Origin: an uncultured Dehalococcoidales bacterium
GTDB taxonomy: Bacteria > Chloroflexota > Dehalococcoidia > GIF9 > AB-539-J10
Direction: 5' to 3'
Assembly (NCBI GenBank): GCA_964514415.1
Contig: CAZEQL010000001.1
Location: 6,510-70,509 of the forward strand
Length of the DNA stretch: 64,000 nt
In this document: positions 7,555 through 38,454 of the stretch, in pieces
Position numbering within the stretch: position 1 is the stretch's first letter
Layout of the letters: every line of letters begins with the position of its first letter
The notes under the pieces: model-generated
The model's input: only the letters and a program-made list of their open reading frames with translations
The model's database searches: none
What the model was told of the DNA's origin: nothing
Position numbers and translations under genes: made by a program

Positions 7555-7574
7555 GTTTTTTTGCTCCTTTGTTG

Positions 7575-7586
7575 CAACTAATTGCA
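7575..7586. promoter_or_regulatory. candidate Fur/Zur operator motif CAACTAATTGCA, copy 2 (overlapping putative -10 TATAAA at 7591..7596)
   Basis: Exact repeat of the 12-mer found upstream of the regulator gene, 28 nt before the znuA-like start. Confidence 0.35.
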
Positions 7587-7613
7587 GGTATATAAAGTAT
7601 CGAAAGGAGAATT

Positions 7614-8450: not shown

Positions 8451-8463
8451 TGGAGGCAACAGC

Positions 8464-9243: not shown

Positions 9244-9246
9244 CGA

Positions 9247-10688: not shown

Positions 10689-10925
10689 TATCTAAAGTGG
10701 GGTGCCCCCAATATTAGCACCACTTACAATGAGAGGGTTCCTGCTCTTTCGGTGCCAGAAAACCTGGCTGTTGCCAGTCAGTTTTTACAAGAGTATAATC
10801 AGGCTCACTTGCTTCTTCTCAAATATCCCTGATTAAGTATTGGTATTCCTTTAGTAGTAAAGTGATAACGCTCCTATCATCCACTCACAGCACATAGTGG
10901 GAATAATAAGGAGGGACATGGCTGG

Positions 10926-13750: not shown

Positions 13751-13843
13751 GCAAATGCAAGAGACTATTTAGCAATCTCTACACTGACGCTTTTGTGAGT
13801 GGGAGTGTTCTTACCCAGTGTCTCATCCTTAAAACATGAAGAT

Positions 13844-13872
13844 TTGACATCCCAAATGCAGTTAATTATAAT
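13844..13872 (+). promoter_or_regulatory. consensus sigma70-type promoter: TTGACA (13844-13849), 17-nt spacer, TATAAT (13867-13872)
   Basis: Perfect -35/-10 hexamers about 120 nt upstream of the 13994 start, in an AT-rich region containing the palindrome CGCATATGCG. Confidence 0.5.
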
Positions 13873-13993
13873 GTTAATCAACTTTACTTGTGTATATGAA
13901 TATTAATTTGTATAAATAAAGATTACGCATATGCGTTTCGGCAAGAAAATCCGCTCATTAAGTGTAAATTAAGCTATTAACAAGGAGGTAGAA

Positions 13994-15205
13994 ATGAGCA
14001 GCATTAAAAAGAAACTCGGTGTTCTGGGTGGTTTGTTGTTGGTTTTGGCACTTATCTCGGCTATGATATTACCCACATCAGTGCTGGGACAGACAACCTA
14101 TCCTTTGCATCCAACTGACGCTAAGATAGCTAATGCTCTGGGTTATCTGCATGGCCAGCAGACCGCAGAGGGCGACATCGGTGGATTTGGACCCTCAGCC
14201 TGGGTAACCATGGCAATAGCTGCCGCGGGGGAAGATCCTCACGAATGGAAGGTGGGAGATAATCCTTCCATCGTCGATTATCTAGCTACTAATGCGGGTG
14301 GTGCCACTTCGGCTACTGATTACGCCAGAATGATCCTGGCTATAGTGGCCGCTCGTGAAAACCCTACAAACTTTGGCGGCATAGATTTTATGGCTCAATT
14401 AGAAGCAACCTATGATGGTATACAAATTGGCGATCCAACGCTAGTCAATGATGATTTTTGGGGAGTTATAGCCCTTATTGCTGCCGGGAAGGAGCCAAGT
14501 TCGGAGATTATCCAACACAGCGCGACGTTCATTAAAAACTGCCAGCAACCTGATGGCGGTTGGGGTTTCGATGTCGCGGCTTCATGGGGAACAGACATTG
14601 ACGATACTGCTGCGTCTGTTATAGCTTTGGTTGTTGCTGGAGAGGGTCCTGCTTCAACCGCAGTGACGAATGCTCTGGCTTATATCAAATTGAAGCAGAT
14701 GGATAACGGAGGCTTTGAATCCTGGGGTGGTGCAACCAACGCGGATACAGATTCCTGTGCCATTAATGCTATAGTGGCTGCGGGCCAAGACCCAACAAGT
14801 GCAGATTGGACCAAAAATGGCAATACTCCTATTGATGATGTGGTAAGCTTCCAGCAGGGCAATGGACAGTTTAACTGGCAGACTGGTGATCCTGGAGCTT
14901 GGCCATGCCAGACCACTGCTGCTGCCGTACAGGCACTTTTAGGCAAACCATATTTCACCACTGTAACCACAGGCTTAGTCTCCCTTGGAGACAACTTAGT
15001 TATAGCCTGGGGCTATAGGGAAGGCGAGGGTACTGGTGGATGGACAGTTTATGGTCCTTCCTTACCACCTGGAAGCAACACCCTCACACTGCTACACAGA
15101 GGCCGGGGCTACTGGATAAACGTGAGAGAAGAGTGCACCTTAGTTTATGGCAATAACACTTATTACCTGGATGAAGGTTGGACTCTTATTGGCTGGCTTG
15201 ACTAA
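13994..15205 (+). CDS. secreted alpha/alpha-toroid (prenyltransferase / squalene-oxidase-repeat-like) protein
   Basis: Signal peptide followed by at least four repeats of [IV]xxxQQxDGG[WF]...TAxA[IV]xAL (QQTAEGDIGGF, CQQPDGGWGF, KQMDNGGFESW, FQQGNGQFNW), typical of PF00432/PF13243-type toroid repeats. Confidence 0.6.
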   Translation: MSSIKKKLGVLGGLLLVLALISAMILPTSVLGQTTYPLHPTDAKIANALGYLHGQQTAEGDIGGFGPSAWVTMAIAAAGEDPHEWKVGDNPSIVDYLATNAGGATSATDYARMILAIVAARENPTNFGGIDFMAQLEATYDGIQIGDPTLVNDDFWGVIALIAAGKEPSSEIIQHSATFIKNCQQPDGGWGFDVAASWGTDIDDTAASVIALVVAGEGPASTAVTNALAYIKLKQMDNGGFESWGGATNADTDSCAINAIVAAGQDPTSADWTKNGNTPIDDVVSFQQGNGQFNWQTGDPGAWPCQTTAAAVQALLGKPYFTTVTTGLVSLGDNLVIAWGYREGEGTGGWTVYGPSLPPGSNTLTLLHRGRGYWINVREECTLVYGNNTYYLDEGWTLIGWLD

Positions 15206-15290
15206 CTTAGGTGATAGCAAAGCATAAAACTCTAGCACGCCTGATTCAGCAATTCTACACGGCAGGCAGCTTTTATAAGGCTAGATATGG

Positions 15291-17048
15291 ATGAGGCAAG
15301 GTAAATTACCGAAGATATTCGTATTATCGCTTACCGTTACCTTCTTACTTGCCATTATCTTAAGTGGTAGTTACCACCAGCAAACGGCTGCCTCTGCCGC
15401 GCAGGCGCTTTTAAGCAAATTACCATATCCAGCAACGGTTCTCGGAGCACAGGAAGAGGCATCTGTCTATGTAAGAATCGAGGGGCAGGATGAAACCATC
15501 TGGAGGGGAAGCGTAACTGTCTCTGAATCCGCTATTATTGCTGATAACAGCAACAAAACCTATCATCTGTCAGACCCCACCGTGTTGGGCGCTCTAGATG
15601 AGGCTTCCCAGACTGGGGATTTCCCATATTACGTGACTGATACCTATGGGGCGTTGTTCGTAAGCTCTATAGGTGAGGAGGAGAATAAGGGGACGGGGAC
15701 GCGTGCGTGTGGTTGGCAGTACCGCGTAAATTACTATTGCCCCAGCGTCGCTGCTGGCAGATTTATTCTGGGTGAAACAACACCCCCAGAACCCCCACAC
15801 CAAGAAGTGCTGTGGTACTATGGGTCCGGTGGCGACGCACCCCTAAAAATATCGTTCAGCGATACCCGGATAGGTGCAGGTGAGGAATTCACCGCCCGGG
15901 TAGCTCTGTATGATGATGGCAGTCATGATTGGTCACCCTGTGCAGACGCCACGGTTCGTATCAATCATCATAATTACACAACTGGCGCTGATGGGACAGC
16001 GGACATCAGCATAGCTAACGAAGGAAGCTATGCTGTCTTTGCTGAAAAAGATGGGTGTATACGCAGTGATAAGATAGCAGTAACGGTTGTGGCATCCGAA
16101 CCTAGGCATCGTAGCCTGACGGTGGATATAAGTCCCGAAAGCGGTGGAGCGGTTGATTTAAGTCCCAATCAGCCCGCTGAGAGTTATTCCGAAGACAGCG
16201 AAGTTGAGCTAAATGCTATACCAGCTAATGGTTATGCTTTTGGCAGTTGGAGTGGTAGTCTGAGCGGCAGCATCAATCCCACCACTGTAATTATGAGCAG
16301 GAATAAAAAGGTTACCGCTAACTTTGTGCTGTTTGATACTGGTAACCTGACTAATATGGGACTAGTGAAGGCAGGCACTGAGGTGACGTCAATTTCTGTG
16401 GATAGCTGCCCTGCCGAGAACCTGGGCGATGTTCCCCCTGACCTGGATATCCAATCAGCCTATGTTGTAGACTCAGAGGGAAGTGGAAGTTTCACCCTAA
16501 AATTCACTGATGTCTCTAATGCTGAGCACGTAAAATTTTATAAGATTGTTGATGCTAGCTGGACAGAGCTTGAGAATGTGACAACCTCTGGCAGCACTGC
16601 CGAACTTGATATGGAAATTGGTAACTCAATCATTGCACTTATGCTGCCTGCATCAGAGAAGCCAGCTAGTTTTTCAGCCTCCAATCTTAATATCTCGCCA
16701 GAGCAAGTCCAGCCTAACCAGCAGGTGAACATCTCCATCGACATAGCCAATAATGGTGGGAAAACTGGAAGCTACGAAGCTGTTCTTTATATCAACAACC
16801 GGATTGAAGACAGCCAGACGGTGAGCATTTCTCCAGGCTCAACTCAGACTGTGGTATTTGGCATAACCAGGGCAACTCCAGATACTTATGCTGTTTCAAT
16901 GGCAGAAGGTCAAGGGCAATTTACCGTGGCTGGCAGCCAAGCTTCCAGTGGTGGACTAGACACTGTGAGCAAAATAGCTATTGTGGTTATTATAGCGCTT
17001 GTCGCAGGTTTGGCTTTCCTATTTCGTAAAATTAGGCAGAAGGCATAA
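15291..17048 (+). CDS. cell-surface protein: N-terminal DUF4430-like domain + InlB-B-repeat-like domain + CARDB-like domain + C-terminal TM anchor
   Basis: Signal peptide. A W.Y.VN...A....L motif resembles DUF4430. The Y.FGSWSG...VTANF block resembles an InlB B-repeat. The C-terminal ~120 aa are homologous to the C-termini of the 24491 and 26656 proteins. Confidence 0.55.
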   Translation: MRQGKLPKIFVLSLTVTFLLAIILSGSYHQQTAASAAQALLSKLPYPATVLGAQEEASVYVRIEGQDETIWRGSVTVSESAIIADNSNKTYHLSDPTVLGALDEASQTGDFPYYVTDTYGALFVSSIGEEENKGTGTRACGWQYRVNYYCPSVAAGRFILGETTPPEPPHQEVLWYYGSGGDAPLKISFSDTRIGAGEEFTARVALYDDGSHDWSPCADATVRINHHNYTTGADGTADISIANEGSYAVFAEKDGCIRSDKIAVTVVASEPRHRSLTVDISPESGGAVDLSPNQPAESYSEDSEVELNAIPANGYAFGSWSGSLSGSINPTTVIMSRNKKVTANFVLFDTGNLTNMGLVKAGTEVTSISVDSCPAENLGDVPPDLDIQSAYVVDSEGSGSFTLKFTDVSNAEHVKFYKIVDASWTELENVTTSGSTAELDMEIGNSIIALMLPASEKPASFSASNLNISPEQVQPNQQVNISIDIANNGGKTGSYEAVLYINNRIEDSQTVSISPGSTQTVVFGITRATPDTYAVSMAEGQGQFTVAGSQASSGGLDTVSKIAIVVIIALVAGLAFLFRKIRQKA

Positions 17049-17083
17049 TCAGATATAGATAAGAGCTTCCTTCTAGAGGGTGA

Positions 17084-18046
17084 ATGTGGATGAAGCAAGG
17101 TAACTTGCCAAAGATAATTGCACTAGCGCTTGCTTTTTCTTGTCTATTCGTCATCGTCGTATCTGGCTGTCAATCACAGCCCTCGGGTGAGATTGCAGTC
17201 AGGGTGATAGTCAGCCAGAACTTTGGCAGTGAATTGATGCTGGATAAGTCAGTGATAATAAACGATGGCGCTGCCGCTCTGGATGCTATGGAAAAGGTAG
17301 CCACAGTGGAAACGAAGTATGGGGGTGGGTTTGTTGAGGCTATAAACGGGATTCGCTCTCAGTATTCTGGAAGTAAAGTTAAGAAGGACTGGTTTTTCTA
17401 CGTTAATGGCATGTCAGCTAGAGTTGGAGCACTGAGCTATAAGCTCCGTGATGGTGACGTAGAGCATTGGGATTTCCATGATTGGAGTCTTTATGCCTTC
17501 GTTCCTGCCATAATTGGTGATTTCCCCCAGCCATTTTTAGGTGGCTATCAAGGGAAGGTTCCGCCAACCGTAGTAGTGTATGATGAAGGCTTCCAAGATG
17601 CTGCTCAGAATCTAATGAGTAAGCTAAAAGAGCTGGAAGTTGAAAATGTGAGCGTCCAAGCTGCCACTGAACTACCCTCTCAAGATAAGGAACACTCCAA
17701 CTTAATACTTTTGGGCACCAAGGGTTTTGAACCCATATCAGAGCTGAACGAGATTTATAAAAAGCTTGGTTTTTTCATTTACTTTGCCGAAGATAAGGTC
17801 ATAGGATTCGATTTGCAGGGAAATCAAGCGCAATATGGACCAGCCTGTGGGTTGATTCAGGCTACCCAGAATCCCTGGAACCCTAAGGGCACCGGAGCTT
17901 GTGAAAATGTAATCTGGGTGGTGTCGGGGATGAACAATGCTGCAGTTGAGGATGCCGCGGATGCCCTAATTAATCATTATGAAAAATTTCGTTATGCCTG
18001 CGCCGCTGTGATAATTGACGGAGAAGTTATCAAGGTGCCTCAATGA
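17084..18046 (+). CDS. DUF4430 domain lipoprotein
   Basis: Signal peptide with lipobox VVSGC. Hallmark DWFFYVNGMSARVGALSYKLRDGDVEHWDF (WxYxVNG...GA..Y.L.DGD...W). The paralogous start MKQGNLPKII suggests the ATG at 17090 may be the true start. Confidence 0.65.
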   Translation: MWMKQGNLPKIIALALAFSCLFVIVVSGCQSQPSGEIAVRVIVSQNFGSELMLDKSVIINDGAAALDAMEKVATVETKYGGGFVEAINGIRSQYSGSKVKKDWFFYVNGMSARVGALSYKLRDGDVEHWDFHDWSLYAFVPAIIGDFPQPFLGGYQGKVPPTVVVYDEGFQDAAQNLMSKLKELEVENVSVQAATELPSQDKEHSNLILLGTKGFEPISELNEIYKKLGFFIYFAEDKVIGFDLQGNQAQYGPACGLIQATQNPWNPKGTGACENVIWVVSGMNNAAVEDAADALINHYEKFRYACAAVIIDGEVIKVPQ

Positions 18047-18969
18047 TAAGCTATAACTATAGAGATAAAGGTACGGCTATTTATAGGCTAAATCCCTGGA
18101 GCAAGCTAGCTTGGATTGCTAGTGTTTTTGTTCTTGCCTTGCTGTTTAATAACCCTTTCTATCTCCTTTTATTATTTCTGTCAACGCTGCCTCTAATTTT
18201 AGCAGCCAAAGTATGGAGAGAATGGACTTCCTTAATAAAATTCATTGTTTTCCTTTGTGGGTTAATAATAGTCATAAATACCCTGGTGAGCAATCAAGGT
18301 TCGCATGTTCTATATCAAGCACCTTTCGCCATCCCCATAATGGGTGTTCCTACTATAACCTTGGAAGCCATACTTTGTGGTGTAGGGAATAGCATACGGC
18401 TGCTAGCCATAATTTCTGCTTTCACTATCCTTATGTTTACTATCCACCCCGATGACTTAATGCTAGCTATGACAAAAGTGAAGTTGCCTTATAAATCGGT
18501 CCTGGTCACTTCCTTATCCGCCAAATTTGTCCCCACACTAATCGATGATGCACAATGTATCACTGACGTTCAGAGGTCCAGAGGCCTGGAGTTTGAGAAG
18601 GGAGGGCGAATTCAAAGGGCTAAGAATCATATGACTATTGCTATTCCGCTGCTATCCAATTCCTTGGATCGAGCAGTCCAGGTTGCTGAAGCTATGGAAT
18701 CAAGAGCTTTTGGCTCCAGCCAAAACAGGACTTTCTACAAAGAACTGAAGATAACTCGATTCGATGCTATCACTATTGCCTGTGCTCTACTCCCCTGCGC
18801 GGTTGGCATTGTTATGCGTTGCCTGGGGCAAGGAGGGTATGAATATTATCCTGTTTTGCAAGAAGTTAGTTTCACACAACTGGAGACAATTATGCTAATC
18901 AGCTTGATATTCTTGTTAAACATGTTATCTATTTTAGCTCCCTTAAAAAGGAGAATCGACCTTGATTAA
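18043..18969 (+). CDS. ECF transporter transmembrane (T) component, EcfT/CbiQ-like
   Basis: 308 aa, polytopic. Arg-containing coupling-helix motifs QRSRGLEFEKGG and AMESRAFG. Start overlaps the upstream stop. Confidence 0.8.
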   Translation: MISYNYRDKGTAIYRLNPWSKLAWIASVFVLALLFNNPFYLLLLFLSTLPLILAAKVWREWTSLIKFIVFLCGLIIVINTLVSNQGSHVLYQAPFAIPIMGVPTITLEAILCGVGNSIRLLAIISAFTILMFTIHPDDLMLAMTKVKLPYKSVLVTSLSAKFVPTLIDDAQCITDVQRSRGLEFEKGGRIQRAKNHMTIAIPLLSNSLDRAVQVAEAMESRAFGSSQNRTFYKELKITRFDAITIACALLPCAVGIVMRCLGQGGYEYYPVLQEVSFTQLETIMLISLIFLLNMLSILAPLKRRIDLD

Positions 18970-20668
18970 GATAAATAACTTGACTTTTCACTATAGCGAT
19001 ACCGCTAAGCCGGCTCTGCGAAACATAAGTCTTGAGATTCAGGATGGCGAGTTTGTGCTAATTACTGGCCCCTCTGGGGGAGGGAAGTCAAGTCTATGTC
19101 GCTGTCTGAATGGGTTGATACCGCATTTTTATGGAGGTGAGATAAGTGGCAAGGTGGAGGTGGAGAGCCTTGATGTAATGGAGCATCCCACTATGGAGTT
19201 AGCTACCAAGGTGGGAATGGTATTTCAAGACCCAGAGAATCAACTGGTGTCAACGGATGTAGATAGGGAGATCGCTTTTGGCTTGGAAAATCTTGGCTTT
19301 CCCCGGGAACTAATGGCTAAAAGAGTAGAAGAAGCATTGGATACAGTGGGTATTGCTGGATTGCGCCATCGAACTATAACTGAGCTCTCTGGCGGAGAAA
19401 AACAGCGGGTGGCTATAGCCTCAGTCATAGCGTTGTATCCTAATATCTTGGTGCTAGATGAGCCTACCTCCGAATTAGACCCTAAAGGCGCTGAAGAGGT
19501 GCTTAATGTGGTAGAGCGACTGAACGATGAGTTAGGCATTACGGTGATACTGGTAGAACACAGGTTAGACAGGGTGGTGCAACATGTTGATAGAATACTT
19601 GTGTTGGATGATGGCATGATTATGGCTGATGGGGTTCCGCGATCAATTCTCAGCGATAGTAGGGTTGCGTTAAGTGGTGTCGGCATGCCTCCAGTAATCA
19701 AACTTACCCAGGGGCTTAAACAAAGAGGCATCAGAATTGATAACACTCCTCTAACAGTTAAAGAAGGCAGGACAGCTTTAGCCAAAACCCTTCAACCCCA
19801 CACCTTTCTGACCCTGAACGAAGTGAAGAGGAAAAATCTGTCTCCTCAGCCCATTAATAATACTAAAAGGGATTACTCTCAGCCGCTAATTGACGTGAAG
19901 GGACTATGGCACGCTTACCCCAACGATTTTGTTGCTCTGAAAAACATAAGTGTGAAAGTATGTGAAGGGGAATTTATAGCTGTTATGGGCAGGAATGCCT
20001 CTGGAAAGACAACCTTGGTCAAGCACTTTAACGGGCTGTTAAAGCCAACAAAGGGCAGCGTGCTGGTGAATGGCATTGATACTAGAGAAACAACTATAGC
20101 TGAGCTAGCTAAGAAAGTAGGCTATGTTTTTCAGAATCCTAATGAGCATCTATTCGCCGATACTGTTGAAGAGGAGATTGCCTTTACTCTAAGGAATTTG
20201 GGGTTTTCAAACAAGGAAATGGGTCTGATGATTGACCAGGTGCTGGAGAGATTTAAACTTACACAATACCGGCATCGATACCCACGGTCTTTAAGCGGCG
20301 GAGAAAAACAAAGGGTAGCTCTGGCTTCCATTCTTGTAGCTCGGCCTAAGATAATCATTTTGGATGAGCCTACCAGGGGAATGGAGTATAAGTTGAAGGT
20401 TGAGTTGTTGAGCTTTTTAGATGAGTACAGAAAAGAAGGCAAGGCGGTGATTTTGGTTACTCAAGATGTGGAGACAGTAGCTGAGTATGGCGACAGAGTG
20501 ATATTACTCAGCGAGGGGGGAGTTGTGGTAGATGGGAATAAGCGAGAGGTGTTATCGCAAGCATTGCTATTCTCTCCCCAGATAAATCGCCTGGCTCAAT
20601 CGCTCAAAAGCTATGGTATCCCCGGCGATGTGTTAACTGCTAATGAAGCGTTAGGGATAATGGCATGA
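18962..20668 (+). CDS. ECF transporter fused duplicated ATPase (EcfA-EcfA')
   Basis: 568 aa with two complete ABC cassettes (GPSGGGKSS / LSGGEKQRV / VLDEP and GRNASGKTT / LSGGEKQRV / ILDEP). TTG start with a GGAG RBS. Confidence 0.85.
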   Translation: MIKINNLTFHYSDTAKPALRNISLEIQDGEFVLITGPSGGGKSSLCRCLNGLIPHFYGGEISGKVEVESLDVMEHPTMELATKVGMVFQDPENQLVSTDVDREIAFGLENLGFPRELMAKRVEEALDTVGIAGLRHRTITELSGGEKQRVAIASVIALYPNILVLDEPTSELDPKGAEEVLNVVERLNDELGITVILVEHRLDRVVQHVDRILVLDDGMIMADGVPRSILSDSRVALSGVGMPPVIKLTQGLKQRGIRIDNTPLTVKEGRTALAKTLQPHTFLTLNEVKRKNLSPQPINNTKRDYSQPLIDVKGLWHAYPNDFVALKNISVKVCEGEFIAVMGRNASGKTTLVKHFNGLLKPTKGSVLVNGIDTRETTIAELAKKVGYVFQNPNEHLFADTVEEEIAFTLRNLGFSNKEMGLMIDQVLERFKLTQYRHRYPRSLSGGEKQRVALASILVARPKIIILDEPTRGMEYKLKVELLSFLDEYRKEGKAVILVTQDVETVAEYGDRVILLSEGGVVVDGNKREVLSQALLFSPQINRLAQSLKSYGIPGDVLTANEALGIMA

Positions 20669-21363
20669 AGAAGAGCTACATCGTCCTGGCATTGCTACTG
20701 GCTTTAAGTATAGGTTTTGCCATTTCCCCTGCTTTGTTTCCTTCGTTCAATGCTTTGGCAAACTGGGGCTTAGTAGCAATTCTGCTAGCCGTTCTGATCA
20801 TATTAGCCTTTTTCTTCAAGTTTGAATCAGTCGCTCTGGGCTCTAAAGAGATAGCGTTAGTTTCCATGTTGGCCACTACATCGGCAGTTCTAAGAATTCC
20901 ATTTGCTGCTATTCCCAGCTTTCAACCTTGCACTTTTTTGATAATTTGCTCTGGATATGTCTTTGGGCCCATATCTGGTTTCATGGTAGGAGCGATGACG
21001 CCACTCATCTCCAATTTTTTCTTAGGGCAGGGTCCCTGGACGTTATATCAAATGCTTGCCTGGGGATTGATAGGGTATGGGGCTGCTTATCTCAGGCGAT
21101 TCAATCTGGACAGGAAAGGACTGATTGTTATTGGTGTTATTTGTGGTTTCGTTTTTGGCTTCCTCACGAATATCTACTTCTGGCTATTCTTTACTTATCC
21201 CCTTACACTCAGAACTTTAATCCTTGTCCAAATTAGCAGTCTTTGGTTTGACATCTCTCATGCCGCAGGAAATGCCATCTTTCTCGGACTCTTTGGCACA
21301 AAGACTATTGGTGTGTTGGAGAGATACAAGAAGCGCTTCAACTGGAAGTTATCATCAAGTTGA
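20665..21363 (+). CDS. putative ECF transporter substrate-specific (S) component
   Basis: 232-aa small hydrophobic protein with about 6 predicted TM segments. Its start is translationally coupled to the EcfAA' stop (overlapping ATGA). Family not recognised. Confidence 0.5.
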   Translation: MKKSYIVLALLLALSIGFAISPALFPSFNALANWGLVAILLAVLIILAFFFKFESVALGSKEIALVSMLATTSAVLRIPFAAIPSFQPCTFLIICSGYVFGPISGFMVGAMTPLISNFFLGQGPWTLYQMLAWGLIGYGAAYLRRFNLDRKGLIVIGVICGFVFGFLTNIYFWLFFTYPLTLRTLILVQISSLWFDISHAAGNAIFLGLFGTKTIGVLERYKKRFNWKLSSS

Positions 21364-23255: not shown

Positions 23256-23285
23256 TTGACATGGCAAAAACATATGTTTTATAAT
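23256..23285 (+). promoter_or_regulatory. consensus sigma70-type promoter: TTGACA (23256-23261), 18-nt spacer, TATAAT (23280-23285)
   Basis: Perfect hexamers about 130 nt upstream of the BtuF-like start. The leader is homologous to the leader of gene 13994. Confidence 0.5.
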
Positions 23286-23413
23286 CTCTCTTAATCAAGT
23301 AAGCTTGCTTTTAAGCAAATAAACTTGTATACCTGAGAGGGAGAGAGGCATATGAACTAGCTGAAGGAATCCGCTGCAGTCTAAGCAACTACTGACAAGG
23401 AGGTAGAGTAGAA

Positions 23414-24478
23414 ATGAATAGCATTAAAAAGAAATTTGGTATATGGGGTAGTCTACTGCTTGCGTTGGCGCTGGTGGTGGCAATGTCGCTTCCTGCAACC
23501 AGTCTGGCTACCACTTATCCCATAACCCTCACCGACGACTTAGGCCGGGAGGTCACCATTGAGGCATTACCACAGAGAATAGTGTCTCTAGCCCCTTCCA
23601 ACACCGAGATACTATTTGCCCTGGGCTTGGGGGATAGAGTGGTGGGAGTGACAGACTTCTGCGACTACCCACCGGAGGCTCAGGAGAAGGAAAGCATAGG
23701 AGGTCCCTGGACACCGGATGTAGAAAAGCTAGTTGCTCTTCAGCCTGACTTTGTACTGGCTGCAGCTATCAATCCTATCGATGTTATTAACACCCTGGAG
23801 GGATTGGGGGTTACGGTATTCGGCGTAGAAGCCACCGATTTAGATGACATACTTCATGATATCAGGACGGTAGGGCAAATAACCGACAAGGAAGCGGGGG
23901 CAGATGCGATTACAACTGACATGCAAAACAAGATAGATACAATAACCGCAGAGACAGCGGGGCTTCCCCAGAATGAAAAGCCCAGGACGTTCCACATTTG
24001 CTATCACGAGCCCATATGGACTGCAGGCAATGGCACCTTCATCCATGATTTGATTGAAAAGGCAGGGGGAGTGAATATTTTTGCCGACATTGATGACTAT
24101 CAGTCAGTCGACATCGAGGCGGTAATCGGGCGCAATCCCGAGGTAATCATAGTAACGGCGATGGGTGGCACGGCATCCGGAACATGGGACTGGGTACTTA
24201 CCGAGCCCCGGCTTGCGGGTGTATCAGCCCGTCAAAATGGAAGAGCGTACTATGTGGAATCTAACTGGGTTGAGCGCCCAGGACCACGAATAGTGCTTGG
24301 CTTGGAGGCGGTGGCTAAATACATCCATCCCGAGCTTTTCTTCGACCCCTGGGATTACGATGAAGATGGCAATGGAGACATCAACAAGGCTGAAGCCATC
24401 GAATCCATCCAGGACTACTTTAACGGTTTGATAGCTAAGGCGCAGGCGATAGAAGTCGTGACACTCTACTTTGGATAA
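23414..24478 (+). CDS. BtuF-like periplasmic corrinoid/iron-siderophore binding protein (cluster 8 binding protein) with C-terminal EF-hand-like extension
   Basis: Signal peptide. TroA-like binding fold (LAPSNTEILFALG, DFVLAA). C-terminal DEDGNGDINKAE matches the canonical 12-residue EF-hand/dockerin Ca loop (D1, D3, N5, G6, I8, E12). Confidence 0.7.
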   Translation: MNSIKKKFGIWGSLLLALALVVAMSLPATSLATTYPITLTDDLGREVTIEALPQRIVSLAPSNTEILFALGLGDRVVGVTDFCDYPPEAQEKESIGGPWTPDVEKLVALQPDFVLAAAINPIDVINTLEGLGVTVFGVEATDLDDILHDIRTVGQITDKEAGADAITTDMQNKIDTITAETAGLPQNEKPRTFHICYHEPIWTAGNGTFIHDLIEKAGGVNIFADIDDYQSVDIEAVIGRNPEVIIVTAMGGTASGTWDWVLTEPRLAGVSARQNGRAYYVESNWVERPGPRIVLGLEAVAKYIHPELFFDPWDYDEDGNGDINKAEAIESIQDYFNGLIAKAQAIEVVTLYFG

Positions 24479-24490
24479 TTAGGGGAAAAT

Positions 24491-26497
24491 ATGAGAAGGA
24501 AATTATTATCGAGAGGGTTCTTTTCCACCCTGGCGGCAGTTGTGCTGATAGCAGTTATAATCGCACCAGTACTGGCGGCGCCAGCAACCGCTACCAGGAC
24601 ACTCCCCACGTCGGTAGAATCAGTAGCCGAGTTCAATGTCGCCATTGAGGCTTCAGGCTGTGGTTTTGCCGGTCAGGTGGTGGAAACGCTGCCTGATGGC
24701 TTTACCTATGTCGGCTGCGATTCGGAAGATGTCGGAGTTGAGCAAACAGGCAACACAATCAAGTTCACCTTTATGGGTGATTCGGTGAGCTTTATCTATA
24801 CCGCGAGAGCGCCAACGGTCGAGACTACCACTGCTTATACCTTTCATCAGGGCATAGTTAAGGATGAGAATCACATTGAATATCCCATTCCGGACAGCTC
24901 AATAATTGTAACTGCACCTGGTCCCGCGACCTGTACTTTAACCATGGCGGTGAGCGGGAATGGCTCGACCACCCCCGCGGTGGGCGGTCACACTTATGAC
25001 GAAGGAACCGTAGTAGATATCAGCGCCACGGCAAACTCAGGCTGGCGATTTGACCATTGGTCCAGCAATGTTGCCAACCCTGCTTCCTCATCCACCACGA
25101 TAACCATGGACAGCGATAAAACGGTCACCGCCTATTTCACCCTCTTTACCGGGGCGTCGGGCACCAGGACACTTCCGACATTGGTGACATCAGGAGCCGA
25201 GTTCAATGTCGCCATTGAGGCTTCAGGCTGTGGCGACTTCGGTCAGGTAGTGGAAACACTACCCGATGGATTTACCTATGCCGGCTGTGATTCGGAAGAC
25301 GTTGGAGTTGAGCAAACAGGCAACACAATCAAGCTCTCTTTCTTCGATTCGGCAAGCTTTATTTACAAGGTTAAGGCGCCAAGAGTTGCCGCTACCACTA
25401 CCTATACCTTCCAGGGCGAAATCCTGGATGAGGACAGGATTTCCTACCCCATTCAAGATGATGATATAACAGTACTGGTAACATCAGGCACCAGGATTCT
25501 CCCGGCATCGGTGACATCGGGAGACAAGTTCGCTATCACTATTGAGGCTTTGGGATGTGGCGACTTCGGTCAGGTGGTGGAGATCTTGCCCGACGGGTTT
25601 ACCTACGTGAGCAGTTCTCTCCCAACAGGCCAGGTTGAACAGACAGGCAGTATGGTCAAGTTCTCTTTCTTCGATTCAGCAAGCTTTACCTACAAAGTTA
25701 CGGCACCAAGAGTTGCCGCTACCACTACCTATACCTTCCAGGGCGAAATCCTGGATGAGGACAGGATTTCCTACCTCATTGAAAATGATGACATAACAGT
25801 AGTAAATGAGCCACCTGTTGCCAATGCCGGCACTGACCAAACGGTTTATATCCATCCTCCCGCCACCACTGCCAAGGTAACACTCGCTAGCTCTGGTTCT
25901 TATGACCCAGAAGGAGACTCTCTTACCTACGAATGGACATGGAACAGCACTACTGTTACTGAGGGCAATCCAACGATCGAGCTTCCTCTGGGAACTACCA
26001 CAATCACCCTGGTGGTAAACGACGGCAACTCGGATTCATCTCCCGATACCGTAAATATCATCGTACTGGAGTTGAGGAAGTCCAATGAATTATCTAAGAA
26101 GCCGGCAAACTTTGTGGCTTCTTATCTGCATATCTCACCAGAGCAAGTTCTACCCAATCAGCAAGTTGAAATCTCAATCAATATAGGCAATCATGGCGGG
26201 GAGAAAGGTAGCCATACCACTTCCTTGTACATCAACAGGCAGTTAGAAGACAGATGGGTAGTTGGTGTTTCCCCTGGCTCCTGCCAGAATGTGGTGTTCA
26301 GGTTAAGTAAAACAACACCAGGAACTTATCAAGTATCTTTAGAAGGACACCAAGGTCAGTTCGTTGTGCTAGCTCCACTCACAACTACCTATCCCTCTGG
26401 TGGCTTGGGCACAGGTGGCATAATAACCATTATAGTTGTATCTCTAGTGCTCGTTGCAGCAATAGTGTTTCTAATCGCTAGAACCAGAAGAGAGTAA
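24491..26497 (+). CDS. cell-surface protein: 3 tandem ~110-aa novel domains + InlB-B-repeat-like domain + PKD-like domain + CARDB-like domain + C-terminal TM anchor
   Basis: Signal peptide. Thrice-repeated (A/G)TRTLP...FNVAIEASGCG(F/D)(A/F)GQVVE(T/I)LPDGFTY... block. PANAGTDQT...SYDPEGDSLTYEWTW resembles PKD. C-terminus is paralogous to 15291 and 26656. Confidence 0.6.
   Translation: MRRKLLSRGFFSTLAAVVLIAVIIAPVLAAPATATRTLPTSVESVAEFNVAIEASGCGFAGQVVETLPDGFTYVGCDSEDVGVEQTGNTIKFTFMGDSVSFIYTARAPTVETTTAYTFHQGIVKDENHIEYPIPDSSIIVTAPGPATCTLTMAVSGNGSTTPAVGGHTYDEGTVVDISATANSGWRFDHWSSNVANPASSSTTITMDSDKTVTAYFTLFTGASGTRTLPTLVTSGAEFNVAIEASGCGDFGQVVETLPDGFTYAGCDSEDVGVEQTGNTIKLSFFDSASFIYKVKAPRVAATTTYTFQGEILDEDRISYPIQDDDITVLVTSGTRILPASVTSGDKFAITIEALGCGDFGQVVEILPDGFTYVSSSLPTGQVEQTGSMVKFSFFDSASFTYKVTAPRVAATTTYTFQGEILDEDRISYLIENDDITVVNEPPVANAGTDQTVYIHPPATTAKVTLASSGSYDPEGDSLTYEWTWNSTTVTEGNPTIELPLGTTTITLVVNDGNSDSSPDTVNIIVLELRKSNELSKKPANFVASYLHISPEQVLPNQQVEISINIGNHGGEKGSHTTSLYINRQLEDRWVVGVSPGSCQNVVFRLSKTTPGTYQVSLEGHQGQFVVLAPLTTTYPSGGLGTGGIITIIVVSLVLVAAIVFLIARTRRE
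25150..25823 (+). repeat. two tandem ~337-bp intragenic direct repeats (about 95% identical over at least 105 bp, e.g. 25338-25442 vs 25675-25779)
   Basis: Direct reading: near-identical stretches ...gcaagctttatttacaaggttaaggcgccaagagttgccgctaccactacctataccttccagggcgaaatcctggatgaggacaggatttcctacc... recur with a period of 337 nt inside CDS 24491..26497. Confidence 0.7.
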
Positions 26498-26655
26498 CGT
26501 AGAGTGTCCAAAGCGCAGATTAAAAAGAGCAGCTAGTAATATTTGCGTCAGGTGGAGGTGGTACTAATACTATGCCACCTCCACAAAGTGATAACCAAGG
26601 CACCAGCAACATAATTTGTGATGCCGTATTCTGGATGATAAGGGTGAGAGGAAAA

Positions 26656-27951
26656 ATGCTATCGAGAAGGGTCATTCCTTCAATAGCAGCAATTATACTG
26701 ATAGCAGTTATAGCTGCCCCGGCCCTGGCGTCGCCAGCGACAGCCACGCGGACCCTTCCGTCATCGGTAGCTTCAGGAGCCACTTTCAACGTCGCCATTG
26801 AGGCTTCAGGCTGCGGTTTTGCTGGTCAGGTAGAGGAGACCTTGCCTGATGGGTTTACCTATCTCAGTTGCACCCCTGATGATATTGGAACCCAAAAATC
26901 AGGCAACACAGTCAAGTTCACCTTCCTCGGGAATTCAGCAAGTTTTACCTATAGTGCCAAGGCACCAACAATCGACACTATCACCACCTATACCTTCCAC
27001 GGCGTAGTCAAGGATGAGGATAAGAATGAATATCCTGTCGATGATGATGAGATAACTGTGACCATGGGTGGGCCTCCCCCAGAAACTTACATTCTGACTA
27101 TGGCGGTGGATGGAAGTGGCTCAACCACCCCTTCAGTGGGCAACCATATCTATGATGTCGGAGACGTAGTGAGCATCAGCGCCACACCAGCCTCAGACTG
27201 GCAATTTGACCACTGGTCAAGTAACATTGCCGACCCTGATTCTCCATCTACCACGGTAACCATGGATAGAGATAAAACTATCACCGCTCATTTCAGCCCA
27301 GGCAGCAGCAGTGCGAACGACCTCATAACCTATACCTTAACAGTAACCTATGAACCAAGCGATGGCGGAAGTGTTATCCTCAGCCCTTCGGAATTAGGCA
27401 GCCATTATGAGAAGGACACTTCTATCAAGCTAACCGTTATCCCTTCTGAGGGTCATATCTTTTCTTGCTGGGGCGGTGATCTCACCGGAAACGCCAATCC
27501 CGTTACCATAGCTATGGACTCTGACAAGAATATTACCGCCAATTTTGCATCGCCCACGCGGGGAAACCTGGCCAGTTTTGCAATCTCCCCCCTCAATATC
27601 TCGCCAGAGCAAGTTCAGCCTAACCAGACAGTCAGCATCTCCGCCAGTATAACCAACAATGGTGAGAAAACTGGAACTTATGAAGCCCTCCTTTATGTCA
27701 ATGAGCAAGTGGAGGACAGTCAACTGGTGGAGATTTCACCTGGTTCATCCCAGAATGTGGTCTTTAGTGTAACCAAGGCAACCCCGGGAGTTTATACCGC
27801 CTTACTGGGAGAGCAGCAAGGGGAATTCACCGTGGCGAATAACGCTTCTAATAGGAATCTCGACACCAGTAGCACGATAGCTATTGTGGTTATCATCGTA
27901 CTTGTTGTAGCTCTGGTATTCATATTCCGTAGAATTAGGAGAGGAACGTAA
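26656..27951 (+). CDS. cell-surface protein paralog: 1 novel ~110-aa domain + two InlB-B-repeat-like domains + CARDB-like domain + C-terminal TM anchor
   Basis: The ATG at 26656 gives the signal peptide MLSRRVIPSIAAIILIAVIAAPALA, aligning with the 24491 protein. The same domain order follows and the C-terminus is homologous. Confidence 0.6.
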   Translation: MLSRRVIPSIAAIILIAVIAAPALASPATATRTLPSSVASGATFNVAIEASGCGFAGQVEETLPDGFTYLSCTPDDIGTQKSGNTVKFTFLGNSASFTYSAKAPTIDTITTYTFHGVVKDEDKNEYPVDDDEITVTMGGPPPETYILTMAVDGSGSTTPSVGNHIYDVGDVVSISATPASDWQFDHWSSNIADPDSPSTTVTMDRDKTITAHFSPGSSSANDLITYTLTVTYEPSDGGSVILSPSELGSHYEKDTSIKLTVIPSEGHIFSCWGGDLTGNANPVTIAMDSDKNITANFASPTRGNLASFAISPLNISPEQVQPNQTVSISASITNNGEKTGTYEALLYVNEQVEDSQLVEISPGSSQNVVFSVTKATPGVYTALLGEQQGEFTVANNASNRNLDTSSTIAIVVIIVLVVALVFIFRRIRRGT

Positions 27952-28165
27952 CTACGTACAAATTAAAGGGAGTATCAAAAAAGGCAGCCTTTATTCAATC
28001 AACAAAGTTGCTTAACAACCCGTCCGATTCTAAGCAAAGCGAGAAATTAGGACCCCTCGTCACTGTTCGGAAGACAGACTAAATAATCCTCAATCAGTTG
28101 AACTTGTTTATAGTAAGCTTAGGTTGTAATATTATGGATATTTGGCAAGCTCGAGAGGTAGTCAA

Positions 28166-28810
28166 ATGAAAGTTTTCGCTTCATGGAGTGGAGGGAAAGA
28201 ATGCGCTTTGGCAACCTATAGAGCAATTTCACAAGGGTATGAAGTCTTATATTTGGTTAACTTTATCTCTGAAGATGGGGAGAGATCAAGGTCTCATGGG
28301 ATTAAGGCCGGTGTTTTAGCTTCGCAAGCAGAAGCTATTGGCATCCCTCTGATTCAGGTGAAAACGTCCTGGGAAGAATATGAGGAGAACTTTAAGAAGG
28401 TCGTGAGAGAGCTCAAGCATAAGGGGATAGAAGGAGGAGTTTTTGGCGATATAGACTTAAAAGAGCATAGGGAGTGGGTAGAGAGGGTCTGTAATGAGCT
28501 AGGGATAAAGGCGTTTCTGCCCCTTTGGGGAACAAAGGCAGAAGAATTAATTGGTGAATTTCTTAAGCTAGAATTCAAAGCTATGGTGGTAGCCACTAGA
28601 TTAGAAGAGAGCTTATTGGGAAAAGTTTTGGATGAAACTCTTGTGAGTCAGGTTACCAAACTCGGCTCCCATCCCTGTGGAGAAGGAGGAGAATACCATA
28701 CTTTTGTCACTGCAGGACCCATCTTTAAGAAGACACTCAAGATTACTCAGGGTGCGAAAGAAAAGAGAGATAATATGTGGTTTCTGGAAATCTCAGCTAA
28801 GTTGCAATGA
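28166..28810 (+). CDS. PP-loop ATP pyrophosphatase of the DUF71 / Dph6 (MJ0570) family
   Basis: N-terminal SWSGGKEC PP-loop and the family-typical EGGEYHT motif. The start is placed at the ATG at 28166 with its RBS; the track starts at an upstream TTG. Confidence 0.65.
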   Translation: MKVFASWSGGKECALATYRAISQGYEVLYLVNFISEDGERSRSHGIKAGVLASQAEAIGIPLIQVKTSWEEYEENFKKVVRELKHKGIEGGVFGDIDLKEHREWVERVCNELGIKAFLPLWGTKAEELIGEFLKLEFKAMVVATRLEESLLGKVLDETLVSQVTKLGSHPCGEGGEYHTFVTAGPIFKKTLKITQGAKEKRDNMWFLEISAKLQ

Positions 28811-28896
28811 GAGAGGCGCTCCATTGCTCTACGTTCCCGAGCAAATCGCAGTGCTTTGGAAATTCTTCGTTATGCTCAGAATAAAGGAGTGAACTT

Positions 28897-29661: not shown

Positions 29662-29666
29662 TTAAA

Positions 29667-29753
29667 ATGAATATCTATCATATCACTTATGCCCTAGAGG
29701 CTAAACACACTTGTCCTCTTTTAAGGGGGGATGGAAGGTTTAAGCTCAAGTAG
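29667..29753 (+). pseudogene. 5' stub duplicate of the radical SAM gene (28-codon ORF MNIYHITYALEAKHTCPLLRGDGRFKLK)
   Basis: The first ~24 nt, atgaatatctatcatatcacttat, nearly match the start of gene 28897, gtgaatatctatcacatatcttat. It lies 6 nt after that gene's stop and is then unrelated. Confidence 0.3.
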
Positions 29754-29767
29754 TGCGGGTATATTAA

Positions 29768-30892: not shown

Positions 30893-30902
30893 GAGGAGAA
30901 AA

Positions 30903-32440: not shown

Positions 32441-32447
32441 AAAAACT

Positions 32448-33380: not shown

Positions 33381-33396
33381 GCCGGAGATACAAAGT

Positions 33397-34470: not shown

Positions 34471-34475
34471 TTAAA

Positions 34476-36538: not shown

Positions 36539-36611
36539 AACCAGTAACTGATAGATGCAAGCTTTCAGATCGCATACCTTAACAAAATAAAGGAAGGGGA
36601 GGATAAAGGTA

Positions 36612-37667: not shown

Positions 37668-37683
37668 AAAAAAAGCAGAATAG

Positions 37684-38451: not shown

Positions 38452-38454
38452 AAT

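What the first reader, a model, noticed from the sequence alone, without database searches (positions are those of the whole stretch)
13840..14110. Promoter-leader-signal-peptide cassette duplicated in front of two different secreted corrinoid-related proteins
The alpha/alpha-toroid gene (13994) and the BtuF-like gene (23414) are each preceded by a perfect TTGACA-17/18-TATAAT promoter about 120-130 nt upstream.

They share:
- leader segments (gcatatg, (g)aatccgct, taag, acaaggaggtaga);
- the first ~13 codons, MSSIKKKLGVLGGLLLVLAL vs MNSIKKKFGIWGSLLLALAL, including near-identical DNA atgaRYagcattaaaaagaaa.

The mature proteins are unrelated. This suggests modular 5' cassette shuffling and probable co-regulation of the two loci. 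It could be a shared cis-acting leader RNA element, although it is too short and lacks a recognisable B12 box for a classical cobalamin riboswitch.
Basis: seen in the sequence. Interest (0 to 1): 0.6.

Follow-up and report, generated by a model that had tools for sequence, protein, structure and literature searches.

The report
Shared operator-leader-signal cassette, corrinoid regulon
Two unrelated secreted proteins for vitamin-B12-type cofactor uptake in an uncultured Dehalococcoidia bacterium share one ancient promoter, repressor-binding site, leader and signal peptide, which points to control by an uncharacterised DNA-binding protein rather than the usual B12 riboswitch.

Summary
Windows 13844-14119 and 23256-23536 are colinearly similar from the -35 box to codon 42 (local-alignment z 13.5; 0 of 500 shuffles). 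Every sub-block is above chance on its own.

It is not a recent duplication in this genome. The same cassette precedes toroid-gene and BtuF-like-gene orthologues across a Dehalococcoidia clade.

The promoter-proximal part is a consensus sigma-70 promoter followed by two adjacent 20-bp imperfect palindromes (ATnCAAG-N4-CTTGTAT). A profile built only from other genomes finds this operator at 23292, 28099 and 13876 in the window. The 28099 site sits in front of the btuCD/cbiZ/cob salvage operon.

In at least 8 related loci, a winged-helix plus DUF7839 regulator is encoded immediately upstream of the cassette. I propose it is the repressor; binding and ligand are untested.

There is no riboswitch: no Rfam hit, no consensus RNA structure, and the leaders fold less stably than shuffles.

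The long leaders carry a conserved start-stop-like mini-uORF.

The 42-residue N-terminal module occurs only in these two protein families among 1.84 billion representative proteins.

Verdict: a conserved corrinoid-uptake regulon signature, with a candidate new regulator family.

The parts
13844..13872 (+). Promoter A: TTGACA-17-TATAAT in front of the toroid/DUF4430/ECF-transporter operon
   Evidence: 12/12 consensus match. The same promoter is conserved in orthologous loci.
13875..13915 (+). Operator pair A: TAATCAActttaCTTGTGTAT + ATGAATattaaTTTGTATAA, two adjacent 20-bp imperfect palindromes starting 3 nt after the -10
   Evidence: Alignment of 14 loci. A profile trained without window sequences hits 13876-13913 at E 0.013, the third-best hit in the window.
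13916..13993 (+). 5' UTR A. It holds an ATG at 13931 aligned with the mini-uORF start of other leaders (here a 13-codon ORF, 13931-13972, with no SD), the AATCCGCT and AAGTGTAA words, and SD AAGGAGG at 13982-13988.
   Evidence: No stable fold: z +0.95.
13994..14119 (+). N-terminal module A, codons 1-42: MSSIKKKLGVLGGLLLVLALISAMILPTSVLGQTTYPLHPTD. This is a Sec-type signal peptide or anchor plus the first mature residues of the alpha/alpha-toroid protein (gene 13994-15205).
23256..23285 (+). Promoter B: TTGACA-18-TATAAT in front of the BtuF-like operon
   Evidence: 12/12.
23292..23331 (+). Operator pair B: TAATCAAGtaagCTTGCTTT + TAAGCAAAtaaaCTTGTATA
   Evidence: Best hit in the window for the profile trained on other genomes only (E 8.6e-6). 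It also matches on the reverse strand (E 0.003), which shows dyad symmetry.
23332..23413 (+). 5' UTR B. It holds a purine-rich SD-like tract, the mini-uORF ATG AAC TAG at 23352-23360, GAAGG, the AATCCGCTGCAGTCTAAG block, and SD AAGGAGG at 23397-23403.
   Evidence: No stable fold: z +1.63. The uORF is conserved in L030, L032, L033, L038, L040, L041 and L042.
23414..23536 (+). N-terminal module B, codons 1-41: MNSIKKKFGIWGSLLLALALVVAMSLPATSLATTYPITLTD, belonging to the BtuF-like substrate-binding protein (gene 23414-24478)
   Evidence: The same n-region is present in all close orthologues, P0002-P0073.
28091..28135 (+). Third operator pair, CAATCAGttgaaCTTGTTTAT + AGTAAGCttagGTTGTAATA. It overlaps a weaker promoter (TTTATA-17-TATTAT, 28107-28135) in front of the corrinoid salvage operon (28142-39045).
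   Evidence: Profile hit 28099-28130 at E 1.1e-3, second best in the window. The same layout precedes the salvage operons of L033, L035, L036 and L038. Promoter scan.
10771..10835 (+). Tentative: nrdD promoter (TTGCCA-17-TATAAT) followed by the operator-like TAATCAGGctcaCTTGCTT..TCAAAtatcCCTGATTA
   Evidence: The profile gives only E 1.5, so this is not established.
13994..21363 (+). Operon A: toroid protein, DUF4430/Flg_new_2/CARDB protein, DUF4430 protein, ECF T component (CbiQ), double ATPase, ECF S component
   Evidence: Pfam.
23414..27951 (+). Operon B: BtuF-like Peripla_BP_2 protein plus two Flg_new_2/CARDB surface proteins
   Evidence: Pfam. NCBIfam BtuF model, E 2e-35.
28142..39045 (+). 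Operon C, corrinoid salvage: Diphthami_syn_2-like, radical SAM, FecCD (BtuC), CbiZ, ABC ATPase (BtuD), CobD/CbiB, aminotransferase, CobQ, CobA/BtuR, CobT, CobS, CobU
   Evidence: Pfam.

Best explanation
The two regions are copies of one ancient 5' module. It heads two operons of a corrinoid (B12-type cofactor) acquisition regulon in a clade of uncultured Dehalococcoidia.

Shown by computation:
- Each copy has a consensus sigma-70 promoter.
- Directly after the -10 box sit two adjacent ~20-bp imperfect palindromes (ATnCAAG-N4-CTTGTAT, 20-bp register).
- An unstructured A/U-rich 5' UTR follows, usually with a start-stop-like mini-uORF, then a strong SD.
- A 42-residue N-terminal secretion module follows, found only in the toroid and BtuF-like protein families.
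- A third copy of the palindrome pair, without the leader or signal peptide, overlaps the promoter of the btuCD/cbiZ/cob salvage operon at ~28.1 kb.

Inferred:
- The palindrome pair is the operator of a dimeric winged-helix repressor. The candidate is a ~260-270-aa protein with a DtxR/MarR-like wHTH and a C-terminal DUF7839 domain.
- Two dimers would sit on the same DNA face over the transcription start (promoters A and B) or over -35/-10 (promoter C) and block RNA polymerase.
- This regulator is encoded immediately upstream of the cassette in many related genomes. In this genome it must lie outside the window.

Further inferred, from regulon content only:
- The effector is a corrinoid or a closely linked signal, so the protein does the job that cobalamin riboswitches do elsewhere.
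- The shared leader and signal peptide are common descent kept by similar constraints: efficient translation start and export or anchoring of two surface corrinoid binders. They are not an RNA switch.
For: Homology of the cassettes:
- Statistics.

Conservation in orthologues:
- Toroid-gene loci L025, L013, L001/L014, L002 and L019.
- BtuF-like loci L030, L032, L033, L035-L042.
- All show TTGACA-17/18-TAnnAT followed by the palindrome pair (alignments).

Independent test of the operator:
- A 42-nt profile was trained on 14 sites from other genomes only.
- It ranks window sites 23292 (E 8.6e-6), 28099 (1.1e-3) and 13876 (0.013) first, ahead of everything else in 64 kb.
- It matches its own reverse complement.
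- It also finds untrained sites in L039, L041, L042-44 and L001.

DNA-level rather than RNA-level action:
- The same motif lies downstream of -10 in promoters A and B, but over -35/-10 in the salvage-operon promoters.

Regulator:
- An intact HTH+DUF7839 gene sits directly upstream of the cassette in L002, L019, L033/34, L035, L037, L039 and L042/44.
- Its C-terminus is visible upstream in L013 and L043.
- Pseudogene remnants are present in L030/31, L038 and L041.
- Operator-like sites follow the regulator's own -10 in L002, L019 and L037.
- Its wHTH is closest to DtxR/MntR-family repressors.
- The family is highly conserved: the top 120 clusters are >80% identical.

Regulon content:
- ECF transporter with toroid and DUF4430 proteins, BtuF-like protein, btuCD, cbiZ, cobDQATSU.
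- DUF4430 is the C-terminal domain of transcobalamins (PMC4350170).

No riboswitch:
- None in the window or in 146 kb of eight related loci.
Against: - No regulator homologue is encoded in the window (tblastn). The link to this genome is therefore by orthology only.
- DNA binding, the effector and the direction of regulation are untested.
- Operator A scores weakly: E 0.013 in the window-only search, and it falls out of the E<=0.05 list when 0.7 Mb is searched.
- In L033, L035 and L038 the regulator's own promoter shows no obvious operator.
- The AlphaFold model of the regulator is poor (mean pLDDT 62), and the fold search gave nothing at E<=0.001. No ligand-binding fold can be claimed.
- Conserved primary sequence in the post-operator leader (TGAATTAGTTGAAGG..ATCAATTGCAGTCTAA) is not explained by the operator model.
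Confidence: 0.68

Rival explanations
1. The shared leader is a cis-acting regulatory RNA. It would be either an unrecognised riboswitch-like element, or the palindromes acting as 5'-terminal stem-loops that set mRNA stability.
For: - In promoters A and B the palindromes lie downstream of -10 and would be transcribed.
- Unit 1 of copy B can form a 5-bp hairpin in the MFE fold.
- Primary sequence of the long leaders is conserved across genomes.
Against: - No Rfam family matches at E<=10 in a meaningful way: best 20 bits against a 43-bit threshold, for an unrelated sRNA.
- RNAalifold predicts 0 pairs on 7 and on 10 homologous leaders.
- Folding energies are worse than shuffles, z +1.63 and +0.95.
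- The same palindromes lie over -35/-10, mostly untranscribed, at the salvage-operon promoters.
- Several orthologous cassettes (L013, L002, L019, L037, L039) keep promoter and operator but have short leaders lacking the conserved block.
Confidence: 0.08
2. The similarity is a by-product of a recent intragenomic duplication or gene conversion, or of recombination that inserted the ECF operon next to BtuF. It would have no shared regulatory meaning.
For: - The two copies are direct repeats 9.4 kb apart.
- L036 has nrdD-nrdG-cassette-BtuF with no ECF operon in between. Recombination between the two copies would produce exactly that arrangement.
- TF-gene remnants travel with the cassette in L030, L038 and L041.
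- L032 has a tandem duplication of the promoter block.
Against: - The window pair is not more similar than cross-genome pairs. For SD to codon 32, winA-winB is 56% identical, against 68% for winA-L032(BtuF) and 67% for winA-L025(toroid). Signal-peptide identities tell the same story.
- Both gene families carry the module across the clade.
- The operator is also conserved at promoters that lack the leader and signal peptide.
Confidence: 0.12
3. Chance or convergence: two strong promoters, two strong SDs and two generic lysine-rich Sec signal peptides look alike without common origin.
For: Consensus promoters, SD sequences and K-rich/L-rich signal peptides are all low-complexity targets of convergent selection.
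Against: - Colinear similarity is significant in every sub-block, including the spacer leader.
- Other signal peptides in the window are different.
- A profile of the 42-aa module finds only these two families among 1.84 billion representatives.
Confidence: 0.03

Closest known systems
Cobalamin-riboswitch-controlled B12 uptake and salvage operons (btuFCD, ECF-CbrT, cbiZ/cob genes), as in Dehalococcoides mccartyi and many other bacteria
   Same: The same gene content is put under one common control element placed in the 5' region of each operon. The likely logic is also the same: shut uptake and salvage when corrinoid is sufficient. The tentative inclusion of B12-independent nrdDG would fit known B12 regulons too (my knowledge of Rodionov-type regulon reconstructions, not tested here).
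   Different: There is no riboswitch and no conserved RNA structure. The common element is a DNA palindrome pair, with a candidate protein regulator.
DtxR/MntR-family (and MarR-like) winged-helix repressors with palindromic operators overlapping the promoter (e.g. SloR, ScaR)
   Same: The candidate regulator's wHTH is most similar to this family (6o5c E 1.4e-4, SloR E 5e-3). The operators are dyad-symmetric, tandem and overlap the promoter or start site.
   Different: The rest of the protein is a beta-rich middle region plus the DUF7839 alpha/beta domain, not the DtxR dimerisation/metal-binding and SH3-like domains. No metal-site residues were identified. Full-length matches to curated DtxR/MntR models are far below cut-off.
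B12-binding transcription factors CarH/LitR (MerR family)
   Same: They would share the effector class, if the corrinoid inference is right.
   Different: The DNA-binding fold differs. There is no Pfam B12-binding domain hit. CarH-type proteins are light sensors, not uptake regulators (my knowledge).
Transcobalamin/intrinsic factor architecture (alpha6/alpha6 barrel plus C-terminal DUF4430-type domain)
   Same: Operon A encodes an alpha/alpha-toroid protein followed by two DUF4430 proteins. DUF4430 is the C-terminal domain of TCN proteins (PMC4350170).
   Different: Here the two domains are on separate polypeptides beside an ECF transporter. The toroid matches squalene-cyclase/prenyltransferase repeats only weakly. 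Corrinoid binding is not shown.
Family-specific signal peptides such as the YSIRK-G/S type of Gram-positive surface proteins
   Same: A conserved n-region motif (SI[KR][KR]..G..G/S) is shared by functionally linked surface proteins.
   Different: The YSIRK HMMs did not match even at E<=10, so it is not a member. The organism is a Dehalococcoidia.
Minimal 'start-stop' upstream ORFs in bacterial leaders
   Same: An SD-like tract is followed by ATG and an immediate or near-immediate stop. This is conserved through an indel that changes the frame but keeps the stop.
   Different: Translation is not shown. Copy A in the window has a 13-codon ORF without an SD.

Membership tests
Cobalamin riboswitch (Rfam RF00174 and variants) | Covariance-model match with B12 box and conserved multi-helix core | tested here: not met
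   No hit at gathering score in the window or in 146 kb of related loci. No cobalamin family is listed even at E<=10 in either leader.
Any structured cis-regulatory leader RNA | Conserved secondary structure with covariation; folding more stable than shuffles | tested here: not met
   RNAalifold predicts 0 pairs on 7 and on 10 leaders. Folding z-scores are +1.63 and +0.95.
Sigma-70-type promoter | TTGACA and TATAAT hexamers with 16-18 nt spacing, conserved in orthologous positions | tested here: met
   12/12 matches at 13844 and 23256, the only two in 20 kb. The promoter is conserved across 13 loci. The transcription start was not mapped.
Repressor operator of a dimeric winged-helix regulator | Dyad symmetry | tested here: met
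   Units read ATnCAAG-N4-CTTGnAT. The profile matches its own reverse complement. There is a clear inverted repeat in L032, TTATAAACAAG-taaa-CTTGTATAA.
Repressor operator of a dimeric winged-helix regulator | Conserved at promoters of functionally related operons in several genomes (a regulon) | tested here: met
   The profile trained without window data finds the three window sites as its top hits and finds untrained sites in other loci. The sites precede toroid/ECF, BtuF-like and salvage operons.
Repressor operator of a dimeric winged-helix regulator | Physical binding by the named regulator, and effector dependence | not testable with these tools
   The only evidence is gene adjacency in at least 8 loci.
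DtxR/MntR family regulator (the candidate TF) | N-terminal wHTH of DtxR type | tested here: inconclusive
   PDB profile hits to 6o5c (E 1.4e-4) and SloR (E 5e-3) cover only ~65 residues. Pfam assigns MarR_2/HTH_24.
DtxR/MntR family regulator (the candidate TF) | Helical dimerisation/metal-binding domain (and SH3-like domain) | tested here: not met
   The C-terminal part is DUF7839, with a beta-rich middle region. The MntR model scores 16 bits against a cut-off of 153.
Sec-type (SPase I) signal peptide | Basic n-region, hydrophobic h-region, small residues at -3/-1 | tested here: inconclusive
   By inspection, both have KKK, a 19-residue L/V/A core, and then P..SLA|T or ..VLG|Q. No predictor was available, and the long h-region could also be an uncleaved anchor.
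YSIRK-G/S signal peptide | Match to the YSIRK signal HMM (Pfam/TIGRFAM) | tested here: not met
   No such family is reported at E<=10 for four N-terminal peptides.
Mobile or promiscuous 5' cassette (integron- or shufflon-like) | The same module in front of many unrelated genes; recombination sites | tested here: not met
   Only two protein families carry the module among 1.84 billion representatives. No further copy of the leader or start words exists in the window.
BtuF (B12 substrate-binding protein) for gene 23414 | Match to the curated BtuF equivalog at cut-off | tested here: not met
   NF002894 scores 122 bits against a cut-off of 234. It is Peripla_BP_2 and is named 'cobalamin-binding protein' by NCBI for orthologues. 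It is BtuF-like, placed in a cob salvage context.

The most novel reading that the evidence does not exclude
The wHTH-DUF7839 protein would be a previously unrecognised corrinoid-sensing repressor. In a large clade of uncultured Dehalococcoidia it would have replaced cobalamin riboswitches as the master control of B12 uptake (ECF/toroid/DUF4430), BtuF-like binders, salvage genes and possibly nrdDG. The family-restricted N-terminal module would be an address tag that places the two extracellular corrinoid binders together at the cell surface.
Probability: 0.35. Interest if true: 0.75.

Novelty: new variant of a known kind. Interest (0 to 1): 0.58.

Why it matters
B12 uptake and salvage in bacteria is the textbook case of riboswitch control. 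Corrinoid auxotrophy shapes the ecology of Dehalococcoidia. This analysis yields several testable items:

- a defined operator motif;
- a candidate protein regulator from a domain family of unknown function;
- three target promoters;
- a candidate split transcobalamin-like capture system (toroid plus DUF4430) attached to an ECF transporter.

It also shows a rare case in which two unrelated secreted proteins keep a common promoter-to-signal-peptide module over long evolutionary time. That is useful for annotating these operons in metagenomes and for expression engineering.

Tried and rejected
- Riboswitch or structured RNA: rejected. I also tried by eye to find a small hairpin presenting the conserved GCAGTCTAA block. 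Stems such as CAATT/AATTG, TAATTG/CAATTA and CTAAT/ATTAG exist in some leaders, but they are in inconsistent registers and RNAalifold gives nothing.
- Simple word searches for the operator (CTTGTRTAW, CAAGN4CTTGT) were not specific. A profile was needed.
- Recent gene conversion between the two window copies: not supported.
- A third protein family carrying the N-terminal module: none found.
- YSIRK-type signal: no HMM match.
- Regulator gene in the window: none. The Fur-family gene at 7135 belongs with the adjacent ZnuABC genes.
- Fold of the regulator: the AF2 model is weak (pLDDT 62). Foldseek against PDB gave nothing at E<=0.001. The C-terminal domain resembles a tetrapyrrole-methylase half-domain only weakly (3hh1_C, prob 0.99, E 0.02; CbiE 2bb3). 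I treat that as a lead only.
- Literature: no paper mentions DUF7839. No paper was found on a protein regulator of btuF/corrinoid genes in Dehalococcoidia.
Full report
**1. The observation**

- TTGACA-17-TATAAT lies at 13844-13872 and TTGACA-18-TATAAT at 23256-23285. They are the only two perfect 12/12 sigma-70 matches between 10.5 and 30.4 kb.
- The -10 boxes end 121 and 128 nt before the ATGs of the alpha/alpha-toroid gene (13994) and the BtuF-like gene (23414).
- ATGARYAGCATTAAAAAGAAA occurs twice in 64 kb, against 0.01 expected. ACAAGGAGGTAGA occurs exactly only at these two sites.
- Local alignment of the two regions scores 54, against 19.6 +/- 2.5 for dinucleotide shuffles (z 13.5, 0/500). 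The non-coding part alone gives z 5.1.
- Each sub-block is above chance: the leader after the palindromes (z 2.6, 15/2000), the leader with SD (z 4.8), codons 1-14 (z 7.3) and codons 15-42 (z 3.6).
- The proteins are 25/42 identical over residues 1-42 and unrelated afterwards.
- Other secreted proteins in the window have different N-termini.
- Independent assemblies carry the same sequences.

**2. Context**

The window comes from an uncultured Dehalococcoidia lineage. The best relatives of the toroid protein among GTDB species representatives are only 58% identical.
- Operon A (13994-21363) encodes the toroid protein, two DUF4430 proteins and a complete ECF transporter: CbiQ-type T component, double ATPase and S component.
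- Operon B (23414-27951) encodes a Peripla_BP_2 protein, called cobalamin-binding by NCBI in orthologues, plus two Flg_new_2/CARDB surface proteins.
- From 28142 to 39045 runs a corrinoid salvage cluster: FecCD/BtuC, CbiZ, BtuD, CobD, aminotransferase, CobQ, CobA, CobT, CobS and CobU.
- nrdD-nrdG lies directly upstream of cassette A.
- DUF4430 is the C-terminal domain of transcobalamins (PMC4350170). Toroid plus DUF4430 therefore resembles a split transcobalamin. This is an inference.

**3. The cassette is ancient and conserved in both gene families**

- Toroid orthologues in L025 (72% identity), L013, L001/L014, L002 and L019 have the same promoter and the same element after the -10.
- L025, L013 and L001 also have the MSSIK[KR][KR]LG-type signal peptide.
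- BtuF-like orthologues at 59-82% identity all start M[SN]S[IMVF]K[KR][KR][LF]G.
- Their upstream regions have the same architecture: L030, L032, L033, L035-L038 and L040-L042.
- The window pair is not unusually similar. For SD to codon 32, winA-winB is 56% identical, against 68% for winA-L032(BtuF) and 67% for winA-L025(toroid). Signal-peptide identities across families equal those within families.
- So there is no sign of a recent duplication or gene conversion in this genome. The module is old and held close to a common consensus in both families.
- A profile of the 42-residue module was searched against 1.84 billion representative proteins. It found five hits at E<=1e-3: three BtuF-like and two toroid proteins. 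The module is therefore specific to these two families and is not a promiscuous cassette.

**4. The promoter-proximal element is a DNA operator**

- Aligning 14 loci gives the consensus tAATCAAG-tnta-CTTGTATA-tAATAAAG-tnaa-CTTGTATAA. This is two adjacent 20-bp units, each an imperfect palindrome ATnCAAG-N4-CTTGnAT.
- L032 shows the inverted repeat plainly: TTATAAACAAG-taaa-CTTGTATAA.
- I built a 42-nt profile from 14 sites in other genomes only. In the 64-kb window its best hits are 23292-23331 (E 8.6e-6), 28099-28130 (1.1e-3) and 13876-13913 (0.013). The next hit is at E 0.36. The profile also matches on the reverse strand, which shows dyad symmetry.
- The 28.1-kb site lies in front of the salvage operon. 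Equivalent sites precede the salvage operons of L033, L035, L036 and L038. Untrained sites were also found in L039, L041, L042-44 and L001.
- At promoters A and B the element starts 3-7 nt after the -10. At the salvage promoters it covers the -35/-10 region.
- A motif that keeps its sequence and symmetry while moving relative to the start site is what a protein operator does, not an RNA element.
- An operator-like sequence also follows the nrdD -10 (10796-10835), but it scores only E 1.5. I list it as tentative.

**5. The candidate regulator**

- In L033/34 a 258-274-aa protein with MarR_2/HTH_24 and DUF7839 domains is encoded immediately upstream of the BtuF-like cassette.
- Homologues sit in the same position in L035, L037, L039 and L042/44 (BtuF-like) and in L002 and L019 (toroid). 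The C-terminus is visible at the contig edge in L013 and L043.
- Truncated remnants lie upstream of the cassette in L030/31, L038 and L041.
- In L002, L019 and L037 the regulator's own -10 is followed by an operator-like site. That is consistent with autoregulation.
- The family is abundant and very conserved, and sources name it only 'winged helix-turn-helix transcriptional regulator'.
- Its wHTH is nearest to DtxR/MntR-type repressors. The remainder is not DtxR-like.
- The structure model is weak, and the fold search is uninformative apart from a faint resemblance of the C-terminal domain to tetrapyrrole-methylase half-domains.
- No homologue is in the window.
- No paper mentions DUF7839.

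**6. Not an RNA switch**

- Rfam finds only a tRNA in the window.
- It finds nothing relevant in either leader at E<=10.
- It finds no cobalamin riboswitch in 146 kb of eight related loci that carry btuFCD/cob genes.
- RNAalifold predicts no pair on 7 or 10 homologous leaders.
- The leaders fold less stably than shuffles, as expected for open translation-initiation regions.
- Several orthologous cassettes have short leaders without the conserved block.

**7. What remains in the leader**

- The long leaders share primary sequence: ..ATGAATTAGtTGAAGG..ATCAATTGCAGTCTAA..CAAGGAGG.
- They also share a purine-rich SD-like tract followed by an ATG and an immediate stop:
  - ATG TGA in L040 and L041;
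  - ATG TAG in L033;
  - ATG AAY TAG/TAA in copy B (23352-23360), L030, L032 and L042;
  - ATG GAG TAG in L038.
- A 1-nt indel between L030 and L041 changes the frame but keeps an immediate stop.
- Copy A keeps the ATG (13931) but has a 13-codon ORF and no SD.
- This looks like a conserved start-stop mini-uORF. Its function (ribosome loading or translational tuning) is a guess.

**8. Mechanism proposed**

- Shown: homology of the cassettes; conservation and symmetry of the operator; its presence at three promoters of corrinoid genes; recurrent adjacency of the HTH-DUF7839 gene; absence of a riboswitch.
- Inferred: the regulator binds as two dimers, 20 bp apart on one DNA face, and represses all three operons. 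The effector is a corrinoid or a linked signal.
- Also inferred: the shared leader and signal peptide persist because both first genes need high, similarly tuned translation and the same export or anchoring route.

**9. Evolutionary note**

- nrdG is the left neighbour of the cassette in the window, in L001/L014 (toroid) and in L036 (BtuF-like).
- Recombination between the two direct cassette copies in a window-like arrangement would delete the ECF operon and give the L036 arrangement.
- This is compatible with the data but not tested.

**10. Verdict**

It is the signature of a conserved corrinoid-acquisition regulon with a candidate new regulator family, plus an unusual promoter-to-signal-peptide module restricted to two protein families.

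Noticed in passing
window 10771-10835: The nrdD promoter (TTGCCA-17-TATAAT) is followed by an operator-like sequence, TAATCAGGctcaCTTGCTT...TCAAAtatcCCTGATTA. The profile E-value is only 1.5. If real, the B12-independent ribonucleotide reductase would belong to the same regulon.
   Followed up: partly
window 23352-23360; L030, L032, L033, L038, L040, L041, L042 leaders: A conserved start-stop-like mini-uORF (ATG TGA, ATG TAG, ATG AAY TAG) lies behind an SD-like purine tract. An indel changes the frame but keeps the immediate stop.
   Followed up: partly
window ~24350-24475: The C-terminus of the BtuF-like protein (DYDEDGNGDINKAEAIESIQDYFNG...) looks like a dockerin/EF-hand-type module. The gene after the orthologue in L032 has a Dockerin_1 hit. 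This hints at a cell-surface assembly with the Flg_new_2/CARDB proteins.
   Followed up: no
L032 2100-2290: The whole promoter/operator block in front of the BtuF-like gene is tandemly duplicated.
   Followed up: no
L030/L031 9453-9746; L038 8470-8637 and 9591-9692; L041 5057-5292: Pseudogene remnants of the regulator's C-terminus lie directly upstream of the cassette. This suggests the unit that was copied in the past included the 3' end of the regulator gene.
   Followed up: partly
L033 ~8750-8770; L035 ~8875-8890; L038 ~5325-5340: The regulator genes appear to be leaderless: TGGTATAAT is followed after 6-7 nt by the start codon.
   Followed up: no
window 13994-18046: A toroid protein plus two DUF4430 proteins sit next to an ECF transporter. 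The domain pair is that of transcobalamin, split over separate secreted proteins.
   Followed up: partly
window 28142-28810 and L033, L035, L036, L038, L039: A Diphthami_syn_2-like (ATP pyrophosphatase-type) gene is a constant member of the corrinoid salvage cluster. Its role there is unknown.
   Followed up: no
window 59290-59730 and 60345-60785: Two 146-aa ORFs 1055 nt apart carry the same word at the same offset. They are probably tandem paralogues.
   Followed up: no
window 7135-10086: A Fur-family regulator gene lies directly upstream of ZnuA/ABC/ABC-3 genes. This is a likely Zur-type zinc uptake locus, unrelated to the finding.
   Followed up: no
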